NCBI GenBank assembly: GCA_000092065.1 | Contig: CP000585.1 | From: Ostreococcus lucimarinus | Lineage: Eukaryota | Strand: one strand, 5' to 3' | DNA length: 64,000 bases | Part shown: positions 1-10,734 of the stretch, piece after piece | Numbering within the stretch: the stretch's first letter is position 1 | How the letters are laid out: every line of letters starts with the position of its first letter | Made by a program: the position numbers and the translations under genes | Notes under the pieces: generated by a model | Database searches by the model: none | What the model saw: only the letters and a program-made list of their open reading frames with translations | Told to the model about the DNA's origin: nothing

Positions 1-200
1 CCCTAAACCCTAAACCCTAAACCCTAAACCCTAAACCCTAAACCCTAAACCCTAAACCCTAAACCCTAAACCCTAAACCCTAAACCCTAAACCCTAAACC
101 CTAAACCCTAAACCCTAAACCCTAAACCCTAAACCCTAAACCCTAAACCCTAAACCCTAAACCCTAAACCCTAAACCCTAAACCCTAAACCCTAAACCCT
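1..200. repeat. Telomeric repeat array (CCCTAAA)n, about 28 units, C-rich strand of TTTAGGG; chromosome terminus
   Basis: Perfect heptamer CCCTAAA tandem from base 1 to ~200, then unique sequence; plant/green-algal type telomere unit. Confidence 0.95.
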
Positions 201-456
201 CTGTGAAAATAATGGAACCCCAAGCACTCCTCTTGCGTGACACACAGTCGATTTGGGTGGAAAGCCTGCGGAGGATCCTTTATGCCGCAAGCTTTCTCAC
301 ACAAATTTCTTCGTTGCCATCTCGAGCCGTGAAGTCTTTCCAAGATGGGTCCTCTGCTTTCCATGTCGAAGCGACAGTTCTGCAAGCCATAAAGGGGAGT
401 CGCGCAATGAGGCAGCTAGTAAGGCGTGGTTCGGCAACTAACGATAGACCTTAAAC

Positions 457-1110
457 TTAAAGGTGCTCAATAAATTTGACGTACGTCGCTACGGCGTCGT
501 CGGTCATCGGAACGATGTGTCCGCGTTCGTGTTCAAAGACTTGAGCGTTCGCGCCGAACGCCTCTGCTACGCGTCGCGCCTGCGCTGGTGGGTTGATGAC
601 ATCGCGCTCGCCGACGACGTGCAAACTGCGAACGACGTCCGACGGCATCGTTTCTAGCTTGGCCGCCGCACACGTCGGCCAGGCGGCGCCGACGATGATG
701 GCCAATTCTTTAATCGCTCTTTCCTCTTTTTGCTTCCCTCCGTCCTCCGCGATAACTAAAGCAGCGAGCATGGCGCCTTGAGAAAAACCAAACAGGCCGT
801 CCCACGGGCCGGCCTCGATCACGCGCTTCATCGAAATATCTAACCCAGGAAGCGACGCGGCGTTGTAAGTGCGCTGTCCGGGCTGCAACGTCCACCATCC
901 GCGCCCGCCCGGGTTCGGCTCTGGTTGGGTGCCATCGGCGAAATGCCAGTCCCAACTGTTCGAGGTCGCGTCCACGAGCGGTGCGAGCCCGCGCGCGAAC
1001 GAGGCCGCGTTCCCACCCTTGCCGTGCAAGCAAAGCATGCGTTTCTTGCGCGTCACATCACCATCGCTCGAGACCATCGTCGCCGTCGCCGCGCGAGCGA
1101 TGGGTGGCAT
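457..1110 (-). CDS. FSH1/OVCA2-family serine hydrolase (alpha/beta hydrolase, DUF341-like)
   Basis: 217-aa ORF; N-terminal LCLHGKGGNAASF, nucleophile-elbow-like GFSQG, C-terminal HxxGERD...H pattern typical of FSH1/OVCA2 hydrolases. Confidence 0.55.
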   Translation of the reverse strand: MPPIARAATATMVSSDGDVTRKKRMLCLHGKGGNAASFARGLAPLVDATSNSWDWHFADGTQPEPNPGGRGWWTLQPGQRTYNAASLPGLDISMKRVIEAGPWDGLFGFSQGAMLAALVIAEDGGKQKEERAIKELAIIVGAAWPTCAAAKLETMPSDVVRSLHVVGERDVINPPAQARRVAEAFGANAQVFEHERGHIVPMTDDAVATYVKFIEHL

Positions 1111-1173
1111 CGCGCGCCTCGATGTGGTGGACTCGACTCGTCACTTTCCGCCGCCGCGCGATGCCCGCGCGCG

Positions 1174-3378
1174 ATGCCCAAGCGTAAGCGACGGCCGTGG
1201 TTGAGCGAAGACGCGGCGAACGCGGCGAACGCGAACGCGAGCTCAAAGGCGAGCGCGCGACGCGAACGCGAACGCGCGTTTCGCGAAGCCCATCCCGAGC
1301 GCTTCATCGATGAAGAGACGGACGACGAGAAGAACGCGCGACGCGACGCGCGTGCGGGCGAGGCCCGTGCGCACGGAGATGCTCGAGATGGGAGCGCACT
1401 CGGGTCGTTCCTCGATGTGGGTGCGCCGCGCGAACGCAGACGAGGTGGGCACGGACGACGCGCGCGCGACGACGCTGGAACGACAGACCCGACGACTTTG
1501 CCCACGCACGCGCCGTGTCAAACGAGAGACGATATAGATGCGCAGGAGTTTGAACGACGACGGGCGCGCGTGGAGGCGGTGACGAGAGAGATTGGAACGT
1601 GCGCGCGGCACAAGCAGTTGGCACGGGCGTGTGAGATGTTTGTGAACTTGGTCTCTCGCGAGGGGTTGGTGCCATCGCCTTACACGTACGCGTCGTTGCT
1701 CAACGCGTACGTGAACACGGGAACTATGGATGGTGCCGAGGCGTTAATGGAGCGTATGCGAGACGTCGGGTGCGCGCCAAACGTCGTAGCGTACACGACA
1801 ATGTTGAAGGGCTACATGCTCGTGGCGAATGTCGACGCCGCGTGGCGAACGCTCAACGGAATTATGCACAACCGAATGTCGCCCGATAGCCGCGCTGTGA
1901 ACACGTACATTCGAGTGTGCGTGCGATGTGGGAACCTGCAAATGGCGCGCCGCGCTTTTGATCGCATGCGTGACTGGGATGTGGTTCCGGACGCCACAAC
2001 GCACAAGCTCATCGGTCGCTTGCTCGCGCAAGGATTGAAGCGCGACGAACTGAAGGCATTAATCAAGCGCACCGTCAAGGGCGAGCACTTGAGATGGACG
2101 AAGGACCCAAGCAGCGGGCCTTGTCAATTTTGGCGCGCTGGGAAATGCGAGCGAGGCGTGAATTGTCGTTTTTATCACGACGATTCAATCGTGCAAAGCG
2201 ACGCGCGCGTGCGTGAGATTGAATCAAATGATACTTTGGCGAGCATGTACGTGAATCACGCGCATGCGTCGGCAATTTCAGGAGACGTGAAACAGAGCAA
2301 AAAGTCGCTTCGCAAAGCCGCAGAGTATCTGACCGAAAATGTCACCGCGGAAGCTTTGACAGTCGGCGGTCTGAAGGATAAAGACGAGCGGGCCGAGTTG
2401 TTTCGTCAAACAAACCGCGACGAGCTCAAACTCGAGATGCGACGCATCGAGGACTTCGTCGAACGATTGATGAGTGGCAAACAACAGCCTCCGAAGCTGG
2501 ACGAACATTTGTCGAGAAGTTTAATCTTTAGTTCACGACTTTTCCAAGAAGTACCAGAACGCGGCGCAAAGATGTCGAGCGAGGAAGTCGACGCACTGCG
2601 CGACAATCTCTACGCCGCGTTGAAGGACACGATGGGGTTGAACGACGATTCCGACGGCTCGGTCAAGCGTGCGATTCGTAAAGTCATCGCAAAAGATGGT
2701 ACGATACGATTTGATCGCATGTTTGGACGTTCCAAAAAGGAGAAGCGCGAGCTGAATGTTGAAGTCGCCGCTGGGAATGGGGACTGGGCTGTGGCTCAAG
2801 CGAAGACTGACGCCTCGGCGGATTGGATCTCTCTCGAGCTTCGTCACGACCGCGTCTACAGCATTTTCTCCCGCGCCGTGTGTTCAGGTGCTTCGAATTT
2901 CGCCGCGATGGGTGGTGACGCGGCGTACATCATGCGTCGTTACGTCGCCTCAGAATCAGTATCGCACGTGTTCGTGAACTTCCCGGAGCCGCCGCATCAC
3001 AGCGGCGACGCTGCGGCGGATAACTCTCTTGCTCTGCTCAACGAGGAGTTTTTCCGCGACATTCACGCGTGTCTCAGACGTGCATACACTTCGACAGATG
3101 CTCCCGGTGGTTTAACGATATTTAGCGACAACCACAGATACATGCAGGCGCTCGCACGCACGCTTGCTGAGCTTGATATATTCACCGCTCGCGACGACGT
3201 CGACCTGGCGTCGGGCGCGCCGGCGAATCAATACGAAACGATTCGCGGCGTTCGTTTGTATCAGGGCGTACCCGGTCCTTCCGCTGGCCATCGCGTGTAC
3301 GAACAGTCGTATTTCGATCGATTTTGGGAAAACGGCCAGCACGTCGATCGGTATTTCATCAGTCTTGTAAGAAAATAG
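1174..3378 (+). CDS. PPR-repeat protein fused to a CCCH zinc finger and a C-terminal TrmB-like (tRNA m7G methyltransferase fold) domain
   Basis: Single 817-aa ORF (925..3378); a start at 925 would overlap the FSH1 gene, so ATG 1174 (MPKRKRR) is preferred. About four 35-aa PPR-like repeats (VPSPYTYASLLNAYVNTG...VVAYTTMLKGY...). C-x8-C-x5-C-x3-H finger (CQFWRAGKCERGVNCRFYHD). C-terminus matches the TrmB/Methyltransf_4 pattern (GNGDWAVAQAK...VFVNFPEPPHH...LTIFSDNHRY). Confidence 0.55.
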   Translation: MPKRKRRPWLSEDAANAANANASSKASARRERERAFREAHPERFIDEETDDEKNARRDARAGEARAHGDARDGSALGSFLDVGAPRERRRGGHGRRARDDAGTTDPTTLPTHAPCQTRDDIDAQEFERRRARVEAVTREIGTCARHKQLARACEMFVNLVSREGLVPSPYTYASLLNAYVNTGTMDGAEALMERMRDVGCAPNVVAYTTMLKGYMLVANVDAAWRTLNGIMHNRMSPDSRAVNTYIRVCVRCGNLQMARRAFDRMRDWDVVPDATTHKLIGRLLAQGLKRDELKALIKRTVKGEHLRWTKDPSSGPCQFWRAGKCERGVNCRFYHDDSIVQSDARVREIESNDTLASMYVNHAHASAISGDVKQSKKSLRKAAEYLTENVTAEALTVGGLKDKDERAELFRQTNRDELKLEMRRIEDFVERLMSGKQQPPKLDEHLSRSLIFSSRLFQEVPERGAKMSSEEVDALRDNLYAALKDTMGLNDDSDGSVKRAIRKVIAKDGTIRFDRMFGRSKKEKRELNVEVAAGNGDWAVAQAKTDASADWISLELRHDRVYSIFSRAVCSGASNFAAMGGDAAYIMRRYVASESVSHVFVNFPEPPHHSGDAAADNSLALLNEEFFRDIHACLRRAYTSTDAPGGLTIFSDNHRYMQALARTLAELDIFTARDDVDLASGAPANQYETIRGVRLYQGVPGPSAGHRVYEQSYFDRFWENGQHVDRYFISLVRK

Positions 3379-3457
3379 TGTAGTCGTCGAATCCGCGCGA
3401 ATGCGTCATTGCGCGACTCCCCTCCCGCGTTCGCCGCGGGCGTTGCGTATCCGTGCG

Positions 3458-4441
3458 ATGGGGAAGAACGACGACGAACGCGGCATCGAGCGCCGCCGAA
3501 TCTTGCTCGTATTCGACCTCAACGGCTTGTTCGTCGAGCGCTTCCGAAACGGAAAATTCACCAGACCTCACGCGGTCGACGCCATCGAAACGGAGCGCGC
3601 CGTTGAGATCGAAGACGCTGTGCCGCGCGCCTCTTCTCCGGTGTCTTCGCGTACGCGCGGTGCGGCGACGCGACTCGAGGTCGTGGAGCCGGACTTTCGG
3701 GTTGGCCGTCACAACCATTACGTTAGGCGCTACACTGAAGAATTTTTGCGCTGGGCTCATGGGCGCTTCGACGTCGCTGTGTGGTCTTCTGCGATGGAAG
3801 TGAACACGACGGCGATGGTGGAAAATATATGGCCGTCCGATTTACGGTCGAAGATCGCGTTCGTGCTCAATCAAGACCACTGCGCGGTGGACGGCGTGAT
3901 GAAAACCAAAGGCGGCTCGAAAGGAACAAAGCCAAAGTTTCTGAAACCGCTGTCGGTGGTGTGGGAAAAGTTTGCGGATAGGTTCGATGCTATGAACACG
4001 TTACTCATCGACGACGACGCGTACAAGGCCATTCGCAACCCTGCGAATACGGCAATCCATCCGAAACCATTTTCTGTGGCGACGCGTGATTCCGACGACG
4101 GACTCAGCGCGAATGGCGCGCTCCGCAAATACCTCGCGAGACTTCTCGCGAGCGACTCGGTGCCCGACTTCGTCAAGGCAAATCGCTTCATCGACGGACA
4201 ACATGACGAAAGGTCAAATGAAGGATTTGTCGAAGATGTAGCAAAGAGCATTGAAACGGTTAACGCAAAACTCGCCGCGTTGCGCGTTCAAGAGAAGGTA
4301 TCACGGCAAAAGACGAAACCCGAGATGAGGATTCCACTTCCGAAATCGCTCATCATGAGGAACGCGGCGAAGACTCGAACGATCGCGCCCGTCGAGCCCG
4401 TCGTAACGCCGACGAGCGAACGAACACGGAGCACTAGGTAG
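3458..4441 (+). CDS. FCP1-homology/NIF-type (CPDc, HAD-like) phosphatase-domain protein with non-canonical motif I (DLNGL); tandem paralog 1
   Basis: ORF 3401..4441; ATG 3458 (MGKNDDERG) is chosen because it clears the upstream gene. LLVFDLNGLFV sits where DLDETL is expected; conserved WSSA...NT, TLLIDDDAYKAIRNPANTAIHPKPF and DSDD...DVR-like blocks typical of CTD-phosphatase-like domains. Confidence 0.6.
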   Translation: MGKNDDERGIERRRILLVFDLNGLFVERFRNGKFTRPHAVDAIETERAVEIEDAVPRASSPVSSRTRGAATRLEVVEPDFRVGRHNHYVRRYTEEFLRWAHGRFDVAVWSSAMEVNTTAMVENIWPSDLRSKIAFVLNQDHCAVDGVMKTKGGSKGTKPKFLKPLSVVWEKFADRFDAMNTLLIDDDAYKAIRNPANTAIHPKPFSVATRDSDDGLSANGALRKYLARLLASDSVPDFVKANRFIDGQHDERSNEGFVEDVAKSIETVNAKLAALRVQEKVSRQKTKPEMRIPLPKSLIMRNAAKTRTIAPVEPVVTPTSERTRSTR

Positions 4442-4527: not shown

Positions 4528-5739
4528 ATGCCCAAGAAGAAACAGGAAATCATCACCACGCGCGCGTCAAATCGGCTGAAAGCACGCGCCGCGGCGGCGC
4601 AGGAAGCCGCGGACGAGGCGATGCGCGCCGGCAAGCGTCCGGCAGTTGCTGCACGAAAGGCTGCGGTAAAGCTCGCCAAAGTCGCCGCCGATGCCGCAAA
4701 GTCGGTGACTGCGAGGGACAAGCGAGGGAATAAGCGCCTGAACGTCGTCGAAGCAGACGCAGCGGCCGAAGATGGCGCGAAAGAGGCGCGGGCTCCGCCG
4801 CCGCCACCGAAGAAGAATGCGAAAAAAAGCTCGGCGAACGCGCTCGTGGCGGCGTCGGGGGCCATCGGGAACACGCGCGCGGTGAGTGCGGTGAAACACG
4901 ACAAGCTTCTCGTCCTCGACCTTAACGGGCTGTTCATCGATCGTCGAATCAAGAGACACGTGAGGGAGGGCGACGACGACGTGGCGTCCGACGAAGAACT
5001 ACGCACTGAGTTGAGGCTGGACGTGGACTCGATCGAGGCGCCGACAAACTCGAAGGAAGTGACGGAGGACGCCAAAGTTGGCAACTTTTACGTGTACGAA
5101 CGTCCACACATGCGCGAGTTTATTGAATGGGTGCACACGCGGTTTGAAGTGGGCGTGTGGTCGAGCGCCAACTTTCGAAACACGACGAATTTGGTAGACT
5201 ACGTGTGGGGCGAGCACAAAAACAAAATCGCATTCGTTTGGGGGCAAGAAAGGTGCTCTGATGTTGGCATCGCGCCCTCATCGACGTCGACGCGCCCAAT
5301 GTTTCTCAAAGAATTGAAACACGTCTGGAAACTTAAAAGGAACACGGGGCTATCTCACTTCAACAAAACGAATACGCTTTTGATTGACGACTCGCCTTAC
5401 AAAGCCATTCGAAACCCCGCGCACACCGCCATCCATCCGTGCGGATTCACCACGGACGATCGTGAGTCGGACGATTTGTTGAGTGAACATGGCGCGCTTC
5501 GCCAATATCTCGAGCGATTGTCAGACGCAAAATCTGTCCCTGACTTCGTGCAGACCAACCCGTGGAATGGTGGGAAGATCAGCGAGCAGCACCAAAGGCA
5601 AATTGCACACGCACACGAAGCTTGCGCAATCGCGACTCAAAAGGCAAAGGCAAAGCTATTTGCTTTCAGGGATCCTTTGGAAATCGATTTGGACGAGGAG
5701 CTCGCCGACCCTTTGGAAATCGATTTGGACAATCTCTAG
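4528..5739 (+). CDS. FCP1-homology/NIF-type phosphatase-domain protein, tandem paralog 2 (DLNGL motif; Lys/Ala-rich N-terminus; C-terminal 12-aa direct repeat)
   Basis: 403-aa ORF starting MPKKKQ; LLVLDLNGLFIDR, WSSANFRNTT, TLLIDDSPYKAIRNPAHTAIHPCGF and ESDDLLSEHGALRQYLERL are collinear with paralog 1; C-terminus DPLEIDLDEELADPLEIDLDNL. Confidence 0.65.
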   Translation: MPKKKQEIITTRASNRLKARAAAAQEAADEAMRAGKRPAVAARKAAVKLAKVAADAAKSVTARDKRGNKRLNVVEADAAAEDGAKEARAPPPPPKKNAKKSSANALVAASGAIGNTRAVSAVKHDKLLVLDLNGLFIDRRIKRHVREGDDDVASDEELRTELRLDVDSIEAPTNSKEVTEDAKVGNFYVYERPHMREFIEWVHTRFEVGVWSSANFRNTTNLVDYVWGEHKNKIAFVWGQERCSDVGIAPSSTSTRPMFLKELKHVWKLKRNTGLSHFNKTNTLLIDDSPYKAIRNPAHTAIHPCGFTTDDRESDDLLSEHGALRQYLERLSDAKSVPDFVQTNPWNGGKISEQHQRQIAHAHEACAIATQKAKAKLFAFRDPLEIDLDEELADPLEIDLDNL

Positions 5740-5770: not shown

Positions 5771-8700
5771 CTAAGTAAGTTTTATTTGTGATAGCCTCAT
5801 CATTAGCTCTTCTTTTGGACGCGTTGGGATCGCACTCGCAGACCAGAAGCGAAGCATCGGTAAGCAGTTTGTCGAAATTGCATACTCGCCGACGCGCACC
5901 TCGCGCGGTTTTGGATCGATGGCGAAAGAAAACGCTGATGCGTGCGGTGGGCTCGACGAATCTTCGCCATCGTGATACCGATACTGCTTGCGACACTCGA
6001 ATATCATCTCATTCAAAGATGTCGCGTACGACACGGCTGTTCGTACCGCCGCGGAATCTTTGCCGCCGAGAACGTTTGAGGCGTGACCGCGCACGACGTG
6101 ACCGCCCGTGACAGCTCCCAGATCTCTTTCCTCGTCGCTACTCTTTATCAAACGCGACGTCACTCGACCATGCTTTTTCACTATCGCCAGGATCTCGTTC
6201 CGAACTTCTAGCGGCGTGAGCGCCATTCCGGCTTCGCCGGTTAGCCAACAGTCGGCTTGAGCCGTGCCGTCGTCTAAAATCACAGAAGCCTCGACTTCGA
6301 ACACACCCGGCCTCGAAGTTCCACGTGCTGAGGGGCGACACACGTCACATCCAGCCAAAACTGCGGGTAACCTGCGCTTGGTCGCGCCAGTGGCGGGGTT
6401 AACGCTCACGTGCATGAGTGATCCGGCGTCGCAACCGCACGCCGGACAGCACCAGCGAACCGTCAACATGGACACCGAAACGACTCGAGCACGCACCGCG
6501 AACGTTCGTCTACTGATTACCAGCCGCTCGCCTGAGTTGCGCATTTCTTCGTCAAAGAGTGCACGAATCGACTGCCTCATCGAAATATTCGTCAAAAGTG
6601 GCAGGTATTCAGATGTCGACGCGCATCGCTCGTGGATCTCAATCGTCGTCACGCCGGGATTCAGTTTGACGTATATGTTCATTGACGCCGCAGAAAGATG
6701 ACGCATCGCGCGATGAATCGTAATTTTTGCTCCTATGCCCACTCCGACGGGAAGGCTGAACGCGGACGTCTTACAGTACACGTCGACAACGTCGTGCGTC
6801 TCGACGTCTTGAACTTTGAATCTCGGCTCCCAGCCAAACTGTGATTGGGATTCTCTACGATTTTCACTCTCAAACCATTCTTCGGCGACGATGATACACC
6901 TAAATGACACAAGTTCTGGTGATGGTTGCCACGAATCTGCACTGCTGAGATGTTTCGCGAAGACTTTGCCCCACACTAGAACATCTCGCACGTCGCGCAC
7001 TTCGGGCGTCGCCGTCATCTCGTCGTCTTCATCGTCGGGCAACACGAAAGCGTCAACATCTGGACGCTCGTCGACGATAAACGTCGTCGCCCCGGAATTC
7101 AGAGTCGGGACGATCGGAATCAAATACGTCGTGCCGTGTCGAAGCAGACAGAACCAACTGTTCTTGGGTCCGAAAGAGACGGCGATTCTGCCGCTGCTTC
7201 GAGACTCGTGCGTCGTGTTCACTATGACGCCGTCCAACGTCTTTACGCCCCCTTGCGCCGTATAGACCTGAATGCTCGTACGTTGTTTCACTTCGGACGA
7301 CGCATCGATTGTGAAAGTCCACGTCGGGGCGACGATAGGATGAGAAAACTTGGAACTGGCGAGTCGCGGCGGGAGCAGCTGCGCGCCCTTCGTCGCCGAA
7401 TTGACGGCCACGTACATGGTGCCGTGGCTCTCTGATTTGGCGCTCGATGTCGGGTTTTGAATGACGACAATATTATCCGAGTCCACGCATAGACTCACGC
7501 GCACCGAAGCGTTGTGATGGTTCAACGCGTCGGCGCGAGAACCGACGTACGCGCCTTCGCACATGATTTCGCACTCCCTGAGCACGACGAGTTTGTTCAA
7601 CATGCTCGGCGCGGGCGCTCGTTTCAAGAATGATTCGATGCAAAGCTCCACAGCTCCTGATGCGTCGACGACGTGGAGTCGTCCATACATGCAGCGTAAT
7701 ATGCCCATGACGTAACGAGGTGGATCAACCTCGCCCAACCGCCCCGTCGCGCGAATGACGACTTTACCTTCGTTGCGAGTGCTGCCGCGCTTGCACGCGG
7801 CGGCGACTTTGTTTTCATCTTTCCACTTCTCAAATACGGCGTCTTTCAACGAGTTTATCGTCGGGACGTCGAAATTACTGATGGACTCCCCGCCCAGTGG
7901 CGTCGGAGCGAAAAACTCTCGGTAAACGTCTGCTCGTTTGAACGCCTTCGAGCCCAAGTCGTGCATCGCCAGTAACAGCGGCGCCGCGGTTTGTTCGTCG
8001 CTCGCTTCACCCGTCTTCCCGAGCGCGTACTCGGCGCTCGCGACATCGATCAGCCTAGAATCGTTCAGAATATCAAAGTTGGTCTCAAAAACTTCCCGCC
8101 ATGCCGCGGCGGCTTCGGCGTACACGAAATTCGACTGTTCCACGACGTACTTGAGCACGCGCGAAAACCGATTCGCCTTTTCGTCCGCGTTGTCTGAGTA
8201 CATCTCGGTCTCTCCTTCCGATGCGTTCTCCGTCGATGTGCGCTTTATCACAATTTGGGTGCGTAAATCAACACCGAGCGTCTCCACGACCCGCTCGTTG
8301 TATTCATCGACTCGCCAAACAGGATGCGCGTGCGTTACGACGACGCGCGCGCCGACGCGCAAACCGGAAACGACGATCTTTGAGTCGACGAGAGGAACGT
8401 GCGTAAACGTGAGTTTGACGTCCCGTCCTTGAGCGTCACGCAGGATCGCGTACGCACGACTAGTACGAACCGATACGACGTGTCCTTCAAACCTATCCAC
8501 CGTCGCCCCTGCGCCGCACATGGCGCACGCGCACGCGCAGCGACGCACTCTGCGCTCGCCAAAGGTGAGACTAACCACGTGAAACTCAGCCGTGGCGGAA
8601 AATGCGCGTAATTCGTGCGTCGCGTCGCCCTTGAATAACACGACTTTGCGTAAATTTCGCATCTCCACCCTCGAACCGACGCACTGTCTTAATATGCACT

Positions 8701-9430
8701 CCCATCGCGCCAGAAACTCTCCGTTAAAAATGATCGGAATCTGCGCGCCGGCGTCGTCTTCGTTTCTAAGCGCGCACATGAAGAACGTCGACTCACCGGT
8801 GGTGATGATCGGACTCACAGCCTCTAAAATACCTCGATGACACGCCCCTAATTTCCCGTTCAACGCTCGAGCGTCGTTCGCCACGCCATCCTCGTCTTCC
8901 AACGGTCCGCAAGCCAAGGACTCCTCGAATCCGTCGTCGTCGTACGCGCGTTCGACGCAGTTCGCCTCGACGACGACGGCGTCTCCATTCCTCGCGTCTG
9001 TCACGACGACGAAATCTCGCACGCAAACGACGCGTCCTAAATCATGTGCCTTCACGTCCACGCTCGCCAGGCGCACCTCCGCGCCGCCGTCTTCGTCTTT
9101 GTCTTTCGCCGTCCACGTCCACCCCCCGCTCGCGTCGTCTCTTCTTCGCAACCCGAGCGTCGCGCGCATGACGACGCCTTTGACGTCCGCGTTCGAGTTG
9201 GCACCGCGCAGTATCTCGCCCACCGTTCGCACGGCGTCGACGTCTCCGCGCGTCTTTCTCGTCGTCGTCGTCGTCGTCGTCGTCGCTTCGTCGTCGCCGC
9301 GCCTCCCACATCCGTCGCGTCGTCCGTCGCCTTCGCGCCGTCCCGTCTTTGACGCCCTCGGCGCGTCGTCGACTCGGTCGTCGTCCGCGTCGTCGCGCGG
9401 CGGCGGCGTCCCTCGCACCGCGATCGCCAT
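5771..9430 (-). CDS. Large OB-fold protein with C-terminal RPA70 DBD-C-like zinc ribbon; candidate CTC1 (CST complex) homolog
   Basis: ORF 5771..9478 (TTG at 9478 is not a start; first ATG 9430, MAIAVRG). 1219 aa. C-terminal CCPACGCD...CDVC four-Cys ribbon followed by VILDDGTAQADCWLTGEAGMAL resembles RPA70 DBD-C (C4 ribbon then L.L.DhTG...vTaFdE); the size matches plant CTC1 (~1270 aa). Assignment is by pattern only. Confidence 0.45.
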   Translation of the reverse strand: MAIAVRGTPPPRDDADDDRVDDAPRASKTGRREGDGRRDGCGRRGDDEATTTTTTTTRKTRGDVDAVRTVGEILRGANSNADVKGVVMRATLGLRRRDDASGGWTWTAKDKDEDGGAEVRLASVDVKAHDLGRVVCVRDFVVVTDARNGDAVVVEANCVERAYDDDGFEESLACGPLEDEDGVANDARALNGKLGACHRGILEAVSPIITTGESTFFMCALRNEDDAGAQIPIIFNGEFLARWECILRQCVGSRVEMRNLRKVVLFKGDATHELRAFSATAEFHVVSLTFGERRVRRCACACAMCGAGATVDRFEGHVVSVRTSRAYAILRDAQGRDVKLTFTHVPLVDSKIVVSGLRVGARVVVTHAHPVWRVDEYNERVVETLGVDLRTQIVIKRTSTENASEGETEMYSDNADEKANRFSRVLKYVVEQSNFVYAEAAAAWREVFETNFDILNDSRLIDVASAEYALGKTGEASDEQTAAPLLLAMHDLGSKAFKRADVYREFFAPTPLGGESISNFDVPTINSLKDAVFEKWKDENKVAAACKRGSTRNEGKVVIRATGRLGEVDPPRYVMGILRCMYGRLHVVDASGAVELCIESFLKRAPAPSMLNKLVVLRECEIMCEGAYVGSRADALNHHNASVRVSLCVDSDNIVVIQNPTSSAKSESHGTMYVAVNSATKGAQLLPPRLASSKFSHPIVAPTWTFTIDASSEVKQRTSIQVYTAQGGVKTLDGVIVNTTHESRSSGRIAVSFGPKNSWFCLLRHGTTYLIPIVPTLNSGATTFIVDERPDVDAFVLPDDEDDEMTATPEVRDVRDVLVWGKVFAKHLSSADSWQPSPELVSFRCIIVAEEWFESENRRESQSQFGWEPRFKVQDVETHDVVDVYCKTSAFSLPVGVGIGAKITIHRAMRHLSAASMNIYVKLNPGVTTIEIHERCASTSEYLPLLTNISMRQSIRALFDEEMRNSGERLVISRRTFAVRARVVSVSMLTVRWCCPACGCDAGSLMHVSVNPATGATKRRLPAVLAGCDVCRPSARGTSRPGVFEVEASVILDDGTAQADCWLTGEAGMALTPLEVRNEILAIVKKHGRVTSRLIKSSDEERDLGAVTGGHVVRGHASNVLGGKDSAAVRTAVSYATSLNEMIFECRKQYRYHDGEDSSSPPHASAFSFAIDPKPREVRVGEYAISTNCLPMLRFWSASAIPTRPKEELMMRLSQIKLT

Positions 9431-9497
9431 CGCGCGCGCCGTCGCGCGCGCCGTCGTCTGTCGCGTGCCCGGTTTCAAATCGAATCGACCGTCGCCT

Positions 9498-9506
9498 AAA
9501 CCCTAA
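9498..9506. promoter_or_regulatory. Telo-box (AAACCCTAA) within a two-unit interstitial telomere-like motif CCTAAACCCTAAAC in the CTC1-like/RFC3 bidirectional promoter
   Basis: Exact AAACCCTAA at 9498-9506, located in the 236-bp spacer between divergent start codons 9430 (-) and 9667 (+). Confidence 0.4.
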
Positions 9507-9666
9507 ACACCCGGATGTGCGGGCGCGCAATTTGAAATCGACAGACTCGGCGCGCCCGTCGCGGGCCGGCGCGATGCGCGGCCCGCGCGCCGCCGCACTC
9601 GAGGACGCGCGCGATCGTCGTCGACGTCGAACGTCGAAGAAAAAGCGAACCTCGAAGCCGCGCGCG

Positions 9667-10734
9667 ATGCTGTGGGTGGATAAACACCGCCCGCACGCCC
9701 TGGGCGAGTGCGACGCGATCAACACGGCGCAGGCGAAACATTTGAAGCTGCTGATCGCGAATGGGGACTGCCCGCACTTGTTCTTTTACGGGCCGTCGGG
9801 GGCGGGGAAGAAGACGCTCGCGCTCGGGGTTTTACGCGAAATCTTCGGACCGGGCGCGGAGAAGGTGAAGTTGGAGAACAAGACGTGGAAGATTGACCAA
9901 AACGATCGAAAGATTGAAGTCGAGTTGGCGATGATGTCGAGCAACCATCACTGCGAGATGAATCCGAGCGATTGCGGGAGCAAGGATCGGTACGTGGTGC
10001 AAGAAGTGATCAAAGAAATGGCGCGATCGAGACCGATCGACAGCGATGGGTGCGAGGGGTTTAAGGTTTTAGTGCTCACCGAAGTCGACCGGCTGTCGCG
10101 CGAGGCGCAGTATGGCTTGAGACGCACGATGGAAAAGTATAGCGCGTCGTGTCGGTTGTTTCTCATCGCCGAGAGACCGAGTCGAGTGATGGATGCGTTA
10201 CAATCGCGGTGCTTGCCCGTGCGAGTGCCCGGGCCGAGGGTTGAAGAGATTGAAAATTTGTTACACGACGTGGCGAAGAAGGAAAAGTTGGAGCTGCCTC
10301 CAGAGCTCGCGACGCGCGTCGCGACGGCCAGCGGACGGAACATGCGGCGGGCGTTATTGGCTTTGGAGACGTGCAGAGTCAACTCGTACCCGTTCAAACC
10401 TACACAAGCGGTGCAGACGACGGATTGGGAGTTGTACATTAACCAGATTGGCGCCGAGATCTTAGCTGAGCAGTCACCGGCGAGGCTGTTGCAAGTGCGA
10501 GGACGTCTGTACGAACTCATCGTCAACTGCATTCCGCCCGAAATAATCTTGCAGAACCTCGCCAAGGCTCTGATGCGTCGCGTTGACGTCGAAGTTAAGC
10601 ATCAAATCGTGTTTTGGGCCGCCCACTTTGATGTTCGCATGCAACGCGGATCCAAAGCCATCATGCACTTGGAAGCGTTCGTCGCGCAATTCATGGCGCT
10701 CTACAAGTCGCATTTGATCAAGGCGTTTGGCTAG
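9667..10734 (+). CDS. RFC3: Replication factor C small subunit (RFC3/38-kDa subunit type)
   Basis: 355 aa from MLWVDKHRPHAL; Walker A FYGPSGAGKKT, DEVD-like VLTEVDRL, SRC motif (QSRCLPVRV), RFC box architecture. Confidence 0.85.
   Translation: MLWVDKHRPHALGECDAINTAQAKHLKLLIANGDCPHLFFYGPSGAGKKTLALGVLREIFGPGAEKVKLENKTWKIDQNDRKIEVELAMMSSNHHCEMNPSDCGSKDRYVVQEVIKEMARSRPIDSDGCEGFKVLVLTEVDRLSREAQYGLRRTMEKYSASCRLFLIAERPSRVMDALQSRCLPVRVPGPRVEEIENLLHDVAKKEKLELPPELATRVATASGRNMRRALLALETCRVNSYPFKPTQAVQTTDWELYINQIGAEILAEQSPARLLQVRGRLYELIVNCIPPEIILQNLAKALMRRVDVEVKHQIVFWAAHFDVRMQRGSKAIMHLEAFVAQFMALYKSHLIKAFG

What the first reader, a model, noticed from the sequence alone, without database searches (positions are those of the whole stretch)
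5771..9430. 1219-aa OB-fold protein with RPA70 DBD-C-like zinc ribbon next to the telomere: candidate CTC1
The C-terminal ~150 aa carry a CCPACGCD...CDVC four-cysteine ribbon followed by FEVEASVILDDGTAQADCWLTGEAGMAL, the pattern of the RPA70 C-terminal OB fold that is retained in CTC1. Length (~1220 aa) matches plant CTC1 rather than RPA70 (~620-650 aa). An internal Cys cluster (RRCACACAMCGAG) lies mid-protein. If it is CTC1, this is a telomere-maintenance (CST) gene, and its promoter carries a telo-box.
Basis: inference. Interest (0 to 1): 0.6.

Follow-up and report, generated by a model that had tools for sequence, protein, structure and literature searches.

The report
Green-alga CTC1 telomere protein gene
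This gene encodes the Ostreococcus version of CTC1, the large subunit of the CST complex that finishes telomere replication; it is an ordinary but very divergent orthologue, which a 2012 survey of green algae could not find and which UniProt's automatic annotation now already names CTC1.

Summary
An uninterrupted 1219-aa ORF lies at 5771-9430 (-). Its 3' end is 5.6 kb from a (CCCTAAA)n telomere at 1-200. The four-cysteine ribbon, the DDGTAQA strand and the internal CACAMC cluster are all present. The window's only interstitial telo-box sits 68 bp upstream of the ATG.

The CTC1 interpretation is supported.
- A profile of the family, searched against 1.84 billion proteins, found only CTC1-type proteins among the hits that carry any annotation. 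These include Selaginella, a fern, Chlorokybus, a fish and a hemichordate.
- hhalign against eight such CTC1s gives 100% probability, E=1e-47, over 914 columns. The zinc ribbon and DDGT motif are in register.
- Foldseek ranks human CTC1 first (E=8e-29 for the whole protein). RPA70 scores about 1e-6.
- No RPA70 Pfam domain is detected.

A >=90%-identical UniProt entry from Ostreococcus 'lucimarinus' is already named CST complex subunit CTC1, so this is known at annotation level. The only paper found says CTC1 "could not be discerned" in this alga.

The telo-box lies in a promoter shared with an RFC subunit gene and is absent from three orthologous promoters. A CxCxxC...THAHPV motif specific to the algal homologues is a minor new detail.

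The parts
5771..9430 (-). CTC1 coding sequence, 1219 aa plus stop, no intron
   Evidence: ORF. Full-length homologues. Homology to CTC1.
9176..9430 (-). N-terminal ~85 aa, low-complexity (D/R-rich, poly-Thr), not conserved, probably disordered
   Evidence: The alignment A1 has no conserved columns here. A period-3 repeat lies at 9259-9296.
8240..9169 (-). N-terminal beta-rich region (residues ~88-397), three OB-like strand clusters. It is equivalent to the OB-A/B/C 'leg' of CTC1 and carries the VEAVSPII..FF and LRVGARVVVTHAHPVW blocks shared with plant and animal CTC1.
   Evidence: AF2 secondary structure, pLDDT 50-65. hhalign columns aligned to the CTC1 N-terminus. The PF15491 hit of orthologue P0007 falls here.
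8516..8533 (-). CACAMC = the CxCxxC cluster (C300, C302, C305). It is invariant in the 12-sequence family alignment and absent from land-plant and animal CTC1.
8318..8335 (-). THAHPV (T366-V371), invariant. A possible partner of the Cys cluster in a lineage-specific metal site (inferred).
7805..8182 (-). Helical linker (residues ~417-542) between the N-terminal and C-terminal OB groups. It occupies the position of the three-helix bundle of human CTC1 and contains the conserved DVYxEFF block.
   Evidence: Predicted helices at model residues 337-462. It aligns with the NIYxEF block of CTC1. The human architecture comes from bioRxiv 10.1101/815886.
6911..7756 (-). Central region (residues ~559-840). 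It holds one predicted beta-barrel (559-656) followed by a low-confidence stretch, and is presumed equivalent to OB-D/OB-E.
   Evidence: pLDDT 21-68. It aligns to the CTC1 profile. The domain boundaries are not established.
6629..6916 (-). OB-F-like barrel (residues 839-934) with invariant D875, Y885 and G900
5774..6505 (-). OB-G-like C-terminal barrel (residues 976-1219), RPA70 DBD-C type. In human CTC1 this domain docks STN1.
6338..6448 (-). Zinc ribbon C995-x2-C998 ... C1028-x2-C1031
   Evidence: C995, C998 and C1031 are invariant across 20 sequences, including animal and plant CTC1. It aligns to the ribbon of Pfam-validated CTC1.
6218..6301 (-). FEVEASVILDDGTAQADCWLTGEAG strand pair. The DDGTA motif is shared with CTC1 across kingdoms.
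9494..9508 (.). Telo-box / short interstitial telomere motif (CCTAAACCCTAAACA; core AAACCCTAA at 9498-9506), 68 bp upstream of the ATG, in the bidirectional promoter
   Evidence: It is present in the same-species contigs L001-L004 and absent from the orthologous loci L005-L007.
9667..10734 (+). Divergently transcribed RFC small-subunit gene (355 aa, RFC3/Rfc5-like) sharing the 236-bp promoter
   Evidence: Pfam RFC_C 96 bits, RCF1-5-like_lid and DNA_pol3_delta2. The same arrangement occurs in L001-L004 and L006.
1..200 (.). Chromosome-end telomere repeat (CCCTAAA)n. This is context, not part of the gene.

Best explanation
The ORF encodes the Ostreococcus orthologue of CTC1, the large subunit of the CTC1-STN1-TEN1 (CST) complex.

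Shown here:
- It is homologous to named plant and animal CTC1 over about 900 aligned positions.
- It has the same order of parts: N-terminal OB folds, then a helical linker, then C-terminal OB folds.
- It ends in an RPA70-DBD-C-like OB fold whose four-cysteine zinc ribbon and DDGT strand align with those of CTC1.

Inferred from human, Arabidopsis and Tetrahymena CST:
- The C-terminal OB folds bind the G-rich TTTAGGG single-stranded overhang.
- They also scaffold STN1-TEN1. Both partners are reported in O. lucimarinus.
- The complex limits telomerase and recruits DNA polymerase alpha-primase to fill in the C-strand. It probably also helps restart stalled forks elsewhere in the genome.

Promoter and position: the gene is transcribed from a short bidirectional promoter shared with a replication factor C subunit, which fits S-phase co-expression (inferred). 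The telo-box in that promoter may contribute, but its function is not established. The position near the telomere is most likely incidental.
For: Sequence:
- Pfam PF15489 CTC1 gives a colinear sub-threshold hit on the window protein.
- PF15491 gives an above-threshold hit on orthologue P0007, and sub-threshold hits on P0005 and P0008.
- hmmsearch of the family profile against 1.84 billion representatives gave 74 hits. Of 24 scanned with Pfam, 13 have a CTC1-family hit at or near the gathering threshold, one has a weak CTC1 hit, the rest have no domain, and none carries another family.
- Source names of the distant hits: CTC1 of Selaginella, Adiantum, Alosa and Ptychodera, plus unnamed entries from Chlorokybus, Creolimax and Didymoeca, all three of which passed Pfam's CTC1 threshold.
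- hhalign of the family against eight validated CTC1s: Prob 100%, E=1.1e-47, 914 columns, query 28-1049 against template 94-1193, with the ribbon and DDGT motif in register.

Structure:
- Whole-protein model: human CTC1 8d0b_A 8.3e-29, 8soj_A 2.2e-28, 7u5c_E 4.4e-22, 6w6w_A 1.3e-20. The next hit is 1.8e-6.
- C-terminal model (pLDDT 76): human CTC1 3e-17 to 6e-12, Tetrahymena p75 about 1e-11, RPA 5e-9 or weaker.

Annotation: the >=90% cluster contains UniRef100_A0A7R9XSJ4, 'CST complex subunit CTC1', Ostreococcus sp. 'lucimarinus'.

Partners: STN1 (ABO95476) and TEN1 (ABO98342) are reported in O. lucimarinus (PMC3400083).
Against: - The window protein alone does not reach Pfam's CTC1 threshold (15.9 against 27.8 bits).
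- HMMER searches against PDB sequences found nothing real.
- The whole-protein AF2 model is poor (pLDDT 45, pTM 0.30). TM-scores to human CTC1 are low (0.12-0.15 for the whole protein, 0.35 for the C-terminus), so the Foldseek E-values reflect local 3Di/sequence similarity along the chain and not a global superposition.
- The eight CTC1s used in hhalign were selected by a search with this same family profile, so that E-value is not fully independent. Pfam and the source names validate them independently.
- No functional datum exists for any green-alga CTC1.
Confidence: 0.92

Rival explanations
1. It is an RPA70 paralogue or another RPA-like multi-OB single-strand-binding protein (RADX-, MEIOB- or Teb1-like), not the CST large subunit.
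Against: - No RPA70 Pfam family appears even at E<=10 or at E<=1 in any family member.
- The length is twice that of RPA70.
- The family profile retrieves only CTC1s.
- hhalign to CTC1 covers 914 columns, including the N-terminal half that RPA70 lacks.
- Foldseek favours CTC1 by 22 orders of magnitude for the whole protein and 8 orders for the C-terminus.
- CTC1 itself is described as resembling a duplicated form of RPA70, which explains the resemblance.
Confidence: 0.03
2. It is a true CTC1 homologue that in this tiny alga works mainly as a genome-wide replication/repair factor with Pol alpha and RFC, rather than as a telomere-specific protein.
For: It shares a bidirectional promoter with an RFC subunit, an arrangement also seen in L006. 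Mammalian CST is known to act at stalled forks genome-wide (abstract of 10.1101/815886).
Against: In all studied systems CST acts at telomeres as well, so the two roles are not exclusive. STN1 and TEN1 are retained, and O. lucimarinus POT1 is reported to bind telomeric DNA (PMC3400083). No data discriminate between the two roles.
Confidence: 0.05
3. The long ORF is a chance open frame in GC-rich DNA and not a gene.
For: In DNA of about 60% GC, long spurious ORFs are common. Several ORFs of 100-230 aa overlap this one on both strands.
Against: - The 1219 codons are conserved colinearly at 50-57% identity in several lineages and at 27-31% in more distant ones, with blocks of invariant residues.
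- The same gene order NIF-NIF-CTC1-RFC holds across species.
- It is homologous to a known family.
Confidence: 0

Closest known systems
Human CTC1 (PDB 6W6W, 8D0B, 8SOJ, 7U5C)
   Same: - Best structural match for both models.
- Similar length (1217 against 1219 aa; the human length is from my own knowledge).
- Same order of parts: N-terminal OB folds, helical bundle, C-terminal OB folds.
- The last OB fold carries a four-Cys zinc ribbon and the DDGT strand.
   Different: - Only 13-16% identity.
- The spacing of the second Cys pair differs: CxxC here, against C-x(4-10)-C-like spacing in the animal sequences of alignment A7.
- Extra CxCxxC...THAHPV motif in the third N-terminal OB region.
- The N-terminal 85 aa are low-complexity.
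- The domain arrangement could not be verified (TM 0.12-0.36).
Land-plant and streptophyte CTC1 (Selaginella XP_024524463.1, Adiantum KAI5063384.1, Chlorokybus; Pfam PF15491)
   Same: The family profile retrieves them at E=1e-7 to 1e-16. An orthologue passes the PF15491 threshold. The VxAxSP..FF, LRVGA...H and NIY/DVYxEF blocks are shared.
   Different: The match is too divergent for BLAST-level detection, which explains the 2012 report that CTC1 'could not be discerned' in O. lucimarinus, Micromonas, Chlamydomonas and Chlorella (PMC3400083). The Cys cluster at 300-305 is absent from the fern and Selaginella sequences.
Tetrahymena p75 (CST large subunit; PDB 7UY5, 7UY7)
   Different: p75 is about half as long and lacks the extended N-terminal OB array. 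No sequence-level match was detected.
RPA70 (DBD-A/B/C) and Teb1
   Same: The OB-F-like domain resembles Teb1 and RPA70 OB-A/B. The OB-G-like domain resembles DBD-C, including its zinc ribbon.
   Different: There are no RPA70 Pfam domains, the protein is twice as long, the N-terminal half is unrelated to RPA70N, and the Foldseek E-values are far weaker.

Membership tests
CTC1 (CST large subunit) | The single sequence reaches the curated Pfam threshold of PF15489 (CTC1) or PF15491 (CTC1_2) | tested here: inconclusive
   The window protein scores 15.9 bits on PF15489, below the cut-off of 27.8, although the match is colinear. Orthologue P0007 (53% identical) scores 32.2 bits on PF15491, above the cut-off of 29.4. 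P0005, P0006 and P0008 are sub-threshold.
CTC1 (CST large subunit) | Profile-level homology to validated CTC1 over most of the length, with no competing family | tested here: met
   hmmsearch of the family profile finds named or Pfam-validated CTC1s from plants, animals and holozoan protists, and no hit carrying another family. hhalign gives Prob 100%, E=1.1e-47 over 914 columns.
CTC1 (CST large subunit) | A protein of about 1200-1400 aa built of multiple OB folds (seven in human), with a helical bundle separating the N-terminal and C-terminal groups | tested here: inconclusive
   The length fits. Predicted strand clusters are consistent with 6-7 OB folds, with helices at residues 417-542. Foldseek aligns about 1250 columns to human CTC1. 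However, the whole-protein model has pLDDT 45 and residues 657-840 are unresolved, so the number of OB folds is not established.
CTC1 (CST large subunit) | C-terminal OB-G with a four-cysteine zinc ribbon | tested here: met
   C995, C998, C1028 and C1031 are present. Three of them are invariant across 20 sequences, including animal and plant CTC1. They align to the ribbon of validated CTC1. The OB-G model has pLDDT mostly 75-95.
CTC1 (CST large subunit) | Closest solved structure is CTC1 rather than another OB-fold protein | tested here: met
CTC1 (CST large subunit) | STN1 and TEN1 partners encoded in the same genome | not tested
   They are not in this window. The literature lists O. lucimarinus STN1 ABO95476 and TEN1 ABO98342 (PMC3400083).
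CTC1 (CST large subunit) | Forms a complex with STN1-TEN1, binds G-rich ssDNA, and stimulates Pol alpha-primase | not testable with these tools
   This is biochemistry. It is inferred from human, Arabidopsis and Tetrahymena CST.
RPA70 | Pfam RPA70 domains (Rep_fac-A_C, REPA_OB_2, Rep-A_N) and a four-OB architecture of about 600-650 aa | tested here: not met
   No such hit at E<=10 for the window protein or at E<=1 for any of the 12 family members. The length is 1219 aa.
RPA70 | C-terminal OB fold (DBD-C) with a zinc ribbon | tested here: met
Plant telo-box cis-element | AAACCCTA(A) motif in the proximal promoter | tested here: met
   It lies at 9498-9506, 68 bp upstream of the ATG. It is the only interstitial copy in 64 kb, against 0.09 expected.
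Plant telo-box cis-element | Conservation of the motif in orthologous promoters | tested here: not met
   It is absent upstream of the orthologues in L005, L006 and L007.

The most novel reading that the evidence does not exclude
The algal (marine-metagenome, probably prasinophyte) CTC1s carry a second metal-binding site that land-plant and animal CTC1 lack. It would be formed by the invariant CxCxxC (C300, C302, C305) and THAHPV (H367, H369) motifs in the third N-terminal OB region. That is the part of CTC1 which in humans contacts Pol alpha-primase. Separately, the telo-box in the shared CTC1/RFC promoter could let a telomere-repeat-binding Myb protein couple expression of C-strand fill-in factors to telomere state.
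Probability: 0.2. Interest if true: 0.45.

Novelty: already known. Interest (0 to 1): 0.25.

Why it matters
The finding closes a small gap. The only paper found on the subject (Shakirov & Shippen 2012, PMC3400083) reported STN1 and TEN1 but no recognisable CTC1 in Ostreococcus, Micromonas, Chlamydomonas and Chlorella. It asked whether CTC1 had diverged beyond recognition or had been replaced.

For Ostreococcus and the related marine-metagenome homologues found here, the answer is divergence: a full-length CTC1 is present and CST is complete. Automatic annotation (UniProt) has already reached the same name, so the practical value is limited to three things:
- confirmation of that name with explicit evidence;
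- a bridging profile that could be used to look for CTC1 in other green algae;
- the pointer to a lineage-specific Cys/His motif.

It changes nothing about how CST is thought to work.

Tried and rejected
- HMMER against PDB sequences, with the single protein, the whole-family profile and a C-terminal profile, gave only antibody light chains and one carboxysome protein at E of 0.01-1. The antibody hits come from a chance resemblance of DVYCK..PVGVGIGAKITIHRA to the YYC...FGxGTKxEIKR segment, and were rejected.
- A second word-indexed search with the family profile found no new relatives.
- Two submissions of the exhaustive profile search failed because the profile exceeded 1200 positions. A version trimmed at the N-terminus worked.
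- The whole-protein AF2 model was poor (pLDDT 45). It was used only for secondary structure and Foldseek ranking, not for geometry.
- The telo-box was tested for conservation in three orthologous promoters and not found, so a dedicated regulatory role is not claimed.
- The idea that the subtelomeric position is functionally linked to the gene's role was considered and dropped. The fetched flanks of the orthologous loci contain no telomere repeat, and nothing else supports it.
- A sub-threshold CDC24_OB3 hit on P0008 lies in the C-terminal, RPA-like region of that orthologue and adds nothing.
Full report
**What is there**

Positions 1-200 of the window are a perfect plant-type telomere, (CCCTAAA) x 28.6. 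On the minus strand an uninterrupted ORF runs from the ATG at 9430 to the stop at 5771-5773, giving 1219 aa. The TTG at 9478 listed by the ORF tool is only the mechanical first start.

- CPACGCD...GCDVC, residues 995-1031.
- FEVEASVILDDGTAQADCWLTGEAGMAL, residues 1044-1071.
- CACAMC, residues 300-305.

The telo-box AAACCCTAA at 9498-9506 is the only copy in the 64 kb outside the telomere, against 0.09 expected. It lies 68 bp upstream of the ATG. One correction: the ribbon sits about 190-225 residues from the C-terminus, inside a terminal domain of about 245 aa.

**It is a real gene from Ostreococcus**

- The exact protein occurs on 56 public contigs, and its 90%-identity cluster has 219 members.
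- One member is UniRef100_A0A7R9XSJ4, from Ostreococcus sp. 'lucimarinus'.
- Full-length colinear homologues of 50-57% identity (P0002-P0008) and of 27-31% (P0009, P0010) come from marine metagenomes.
- The neighbourhood NIF phosphatase - NIF phosphatase - this gene - divergent RFC subunit is the same in contigs of the same species and in the orthologous locus L006. L005 keeps the NIF-NIF side, but the contig stops 217 bp upstream of the gene.
- The composition (about 55-69% GC), the lack of introns and the TTTAGGG telomere fit a Mamiellophyceae genome. That last point is my inference.

**Sequence evidence for CTC1**

Taken alone, the protein gives one Pfam hit, PF15489 CTC1. It is below threshold (E=0.0024; 15.9 against 27.8 bits) but colinear: residues 847-999 match profile positions 849-985 of 1139. 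Among the orthologues:
- P0007 passes the threshold of PF15491, the plant-type CTC1 N-terminal family (32.2 against 29.4 bits).
- P0005, P0006 and P0008 give further sub-threshold CTC1 hits.
- No member hits any RPA70 family.

HMMER against PDB sequences found only chance antibody light chains.

The decisive step was an exhaustive hmmsearch of a family profile (alignment A4) against 1.84 billion representatives. It gave 74 hits at E<=1e-3. I scanned 24 of them with Pfam:
- 13 have a CTC1-family hit at or near the gathering threshold. Examples are P0117 (575 bits), P0113 (418 bits, covering the whole profile) and P0102 (356 bits on PF15491).
- One has a weak CTC1 hit.
- The rest have no domain.
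- None carries any other family.

Their sources call them CST complex subunit CTC1 in Selaginella moellendorffii, Adiantum capillus-veneris, Alosa sapidissima and Ptychodera flava. Others come unnamed from Chlorokybus, Creolimax and Didymoeca; all three passed Pfam's CTC1 threshold.

Profile-profile comparison of the family with eight of these validated CTC1s gives Prob 100%, E=1.1e-47 over 914 aligned columns. Query positions 28-1049 align with template positions 94-1193. The following blocks are in register:
- VEAVSPII..FF
- LRVGARVVVTHAHPVW
- DVYREFF
- YCK...P.G.G.GA.VT..RA
- the CxxC...C ribbon
- the F.(V/A)EA....DDGTA.A strand

One caveat applies. The eight templates were found with this same profile, so the E-value is not fully independent. 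Their identity as CTC1 is independently established by Pfam and by their source names.

**Structural evidence**

*Whole-protein model.* An AF2 model of residues 81-1219 with only 10 sequences is poor (pLDDT 45, pTM 0.30). Its secondary structure shows:
- three beta-strand clusters in residues 88-397;
- a helical segment at 417-542;
- further beta-rich segments after that.

This is the layout described for human CTC1: OB-A/B/C, a three-helix bundle, then OB-D to OB-G (bioRxiv 10.1101/815886).

Foldseek against the PDB puts four human CTC1 chains first (8.3e-29 to 1.3e-20, about 1100-1260 aligned columns). The next hit, RPA70 in a repair complex, is at 1.8e-6, and RADX, LEF-3, p75, HIN domains and POT1 are weaker. 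TM-scores are only 0.12-0.15 because the relative domain placement in the model is unreliable. The result therefore speaks to the order and type of local folds, not to overall shape.

*C-terminal model.* A second model of residues 807-1219 used a 20-sequence alignment that bridges to plant and animal CTC1 (A7). It is good (pLDDT 76, pTM 0.60) and shows two OB barrels.
- Foldseek again ranks human CTC1 first (3e-17 to 6e-12), then Tetrahymena p75 (about 1e-11), then RPA proteins (5e-9 and weaker).
- In A7, C995, C998 and C1031 are invariant from alga to vertebrate. The fourth cysteine is at CxxC spacing in the algal sequences and is displaced in the animal ones.

**What it most likely does**

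By homology, this is the large subunit of CST. All of the following is inferred from human, Arabidopsis and Tetrahymena work; none is shown here:
- The C-terminal OB folds bind the G-rich overhang and dock STN1-TEN1.
- The complex restrains telomerase and brings in Pol alpha-primase for C-strand fill-in.
- It probably also assists replication restart elsewhere in the genome.

STN1 and TEN1 are reported for O. lucimarinus (PMC3400083).

**Promoter and position**

The 236-bp region upstream of the gene is shared with a divergently transcribed RFC small subunit (Pfam RFC_C 96 bits). This arrangement is also present in L006. In the more distant L007 the RFC gene lies 3 kb downstream.

The telo-box is present in same-species contigs. 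It is absent upstream of the orthologues in L005, L006 and L007. It cannot be assigned to one of the two genes, and a function in this alga is untested.

Four genes separate the gene from the telomere: an FSH1-type hydrolase, a PPR/methyltransferase fusion and the two NIF phosphatases. I found nothing to suggest that the subtelomeric position matters.

**Comparison with what is known, and novelty**

The only paper I found that addresses the question (Shakirov & Shippen 2012, PMC3400083) states the following:
- CTC1 'could not be discerned' in O. lucimarinus.
- No clear orthologue was seen in Micromonas, Chlamydomonas or Chlorella.
- It remained open whether the protein had diverged beyond recognition or had been replaced.

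The present evidence shows divergence, not loss, for Ostreococcus and the related marine-metagenome homologues. However, UniProt's automatic annotation already names a >=90%-identical Ostreococcus protein CST complex subunit CTC1. I therefore rate the finding as already known at annotation level: a confirmed, uncharacterised orthologue.

**One lineage-specific detail**

The CxCxxC cluster (C300, C302, C305) and the THAHPV motif (366-371) are invariant in the 12-sequence family alignment. Both recur, with minor variation such as THGHP, in the more distant marine-metagenome homologues (P0056-P0062, P0077, P0094, P0103). The cysteines are missing from the fern, Selaginella and Creolimax CTC1, where only LRVGA...H remains. 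This may be an extra metal site in the OB-C-equivalent domain. That is inference only, because the model there is of low confidence.

Noticed in passing
window 8516-8533 and 8318-8335 (-): CxCxxC (C300, C302, C305) and THAHPV (366-371) are invariant in the 12-sequence family alignment and recur in the more distant marine-metagenome homologues. The cysteines are absent from fern, Selaginella and Creolimax CTC1. This may be a lineage-specific second metal site.
   Followed up: partly
window 9431-9666 and 9667-10734 (+): CTC1 and an RFC small subunit (RFC3/Rfc5-like, 355 aa) are transcribed divergently from a 236-bp shared promoter. The pairing is kept in orthologous locus L006, but in L007 the RFC gene lies 3 kb downstream.
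   Followed up: partly
window 9470-9480 and 9530-9540: An 11-nt inverted pair (CGGTTTCAAAT / ATTTGAAATCG, 91% complementary) flanks the telo-box nearly symmetrically in the bidirectional promoter. It could be a paired factor site or chance.
   Followed up: no
window 201-1110: There is no subtelomeric repeat zone. The first gene, an FSH1-type serine hydrolase at 457-1110 (-), ends only about 260 bp from the last telomere repeat.
   Followed up: no
window 3401-4441 and 4528-5739 (+): Two tandem NIF/CTD-phosphatase-like paralogues lie immediately downstream of CTC1. The pair is kept in the orthologous loci L005 and L006, with one copy inverted in L006.
   Followed up: partly
window ~1170-3378 (+): A protein of about 734 aa combines PPR/TPR repeats with a C-terminal Methyltransf_4 (TrmB-type) domain, according to the precomputed Pfam hits on the matching contigs. 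This is an unusual fusion and is conserved next to the NIF genes in L005 and L006.
   Followed up: no
window 9259-9296 (-), residues ~45-58: The non-conserved N-terminus of the protein contains a poly-Thr run and D/R-rich low-complexity sequence, seen as a period-3 tandem repeat. The run differs by one Thr in the 99%-identical P0001.
   Followed up: no
residues 825-917 of the protein (window ~6680-6958): The DVYCK...PVGVGIGAKITIHRA segment mimics the YYC...FGxGTKxEIKR end of antibody kappa variable domains. It pulls dozens of Fab light chains out of the PDB at E of 0.01-1. These are chance matches that could mislead an automated annotation.
   Followed up: yes
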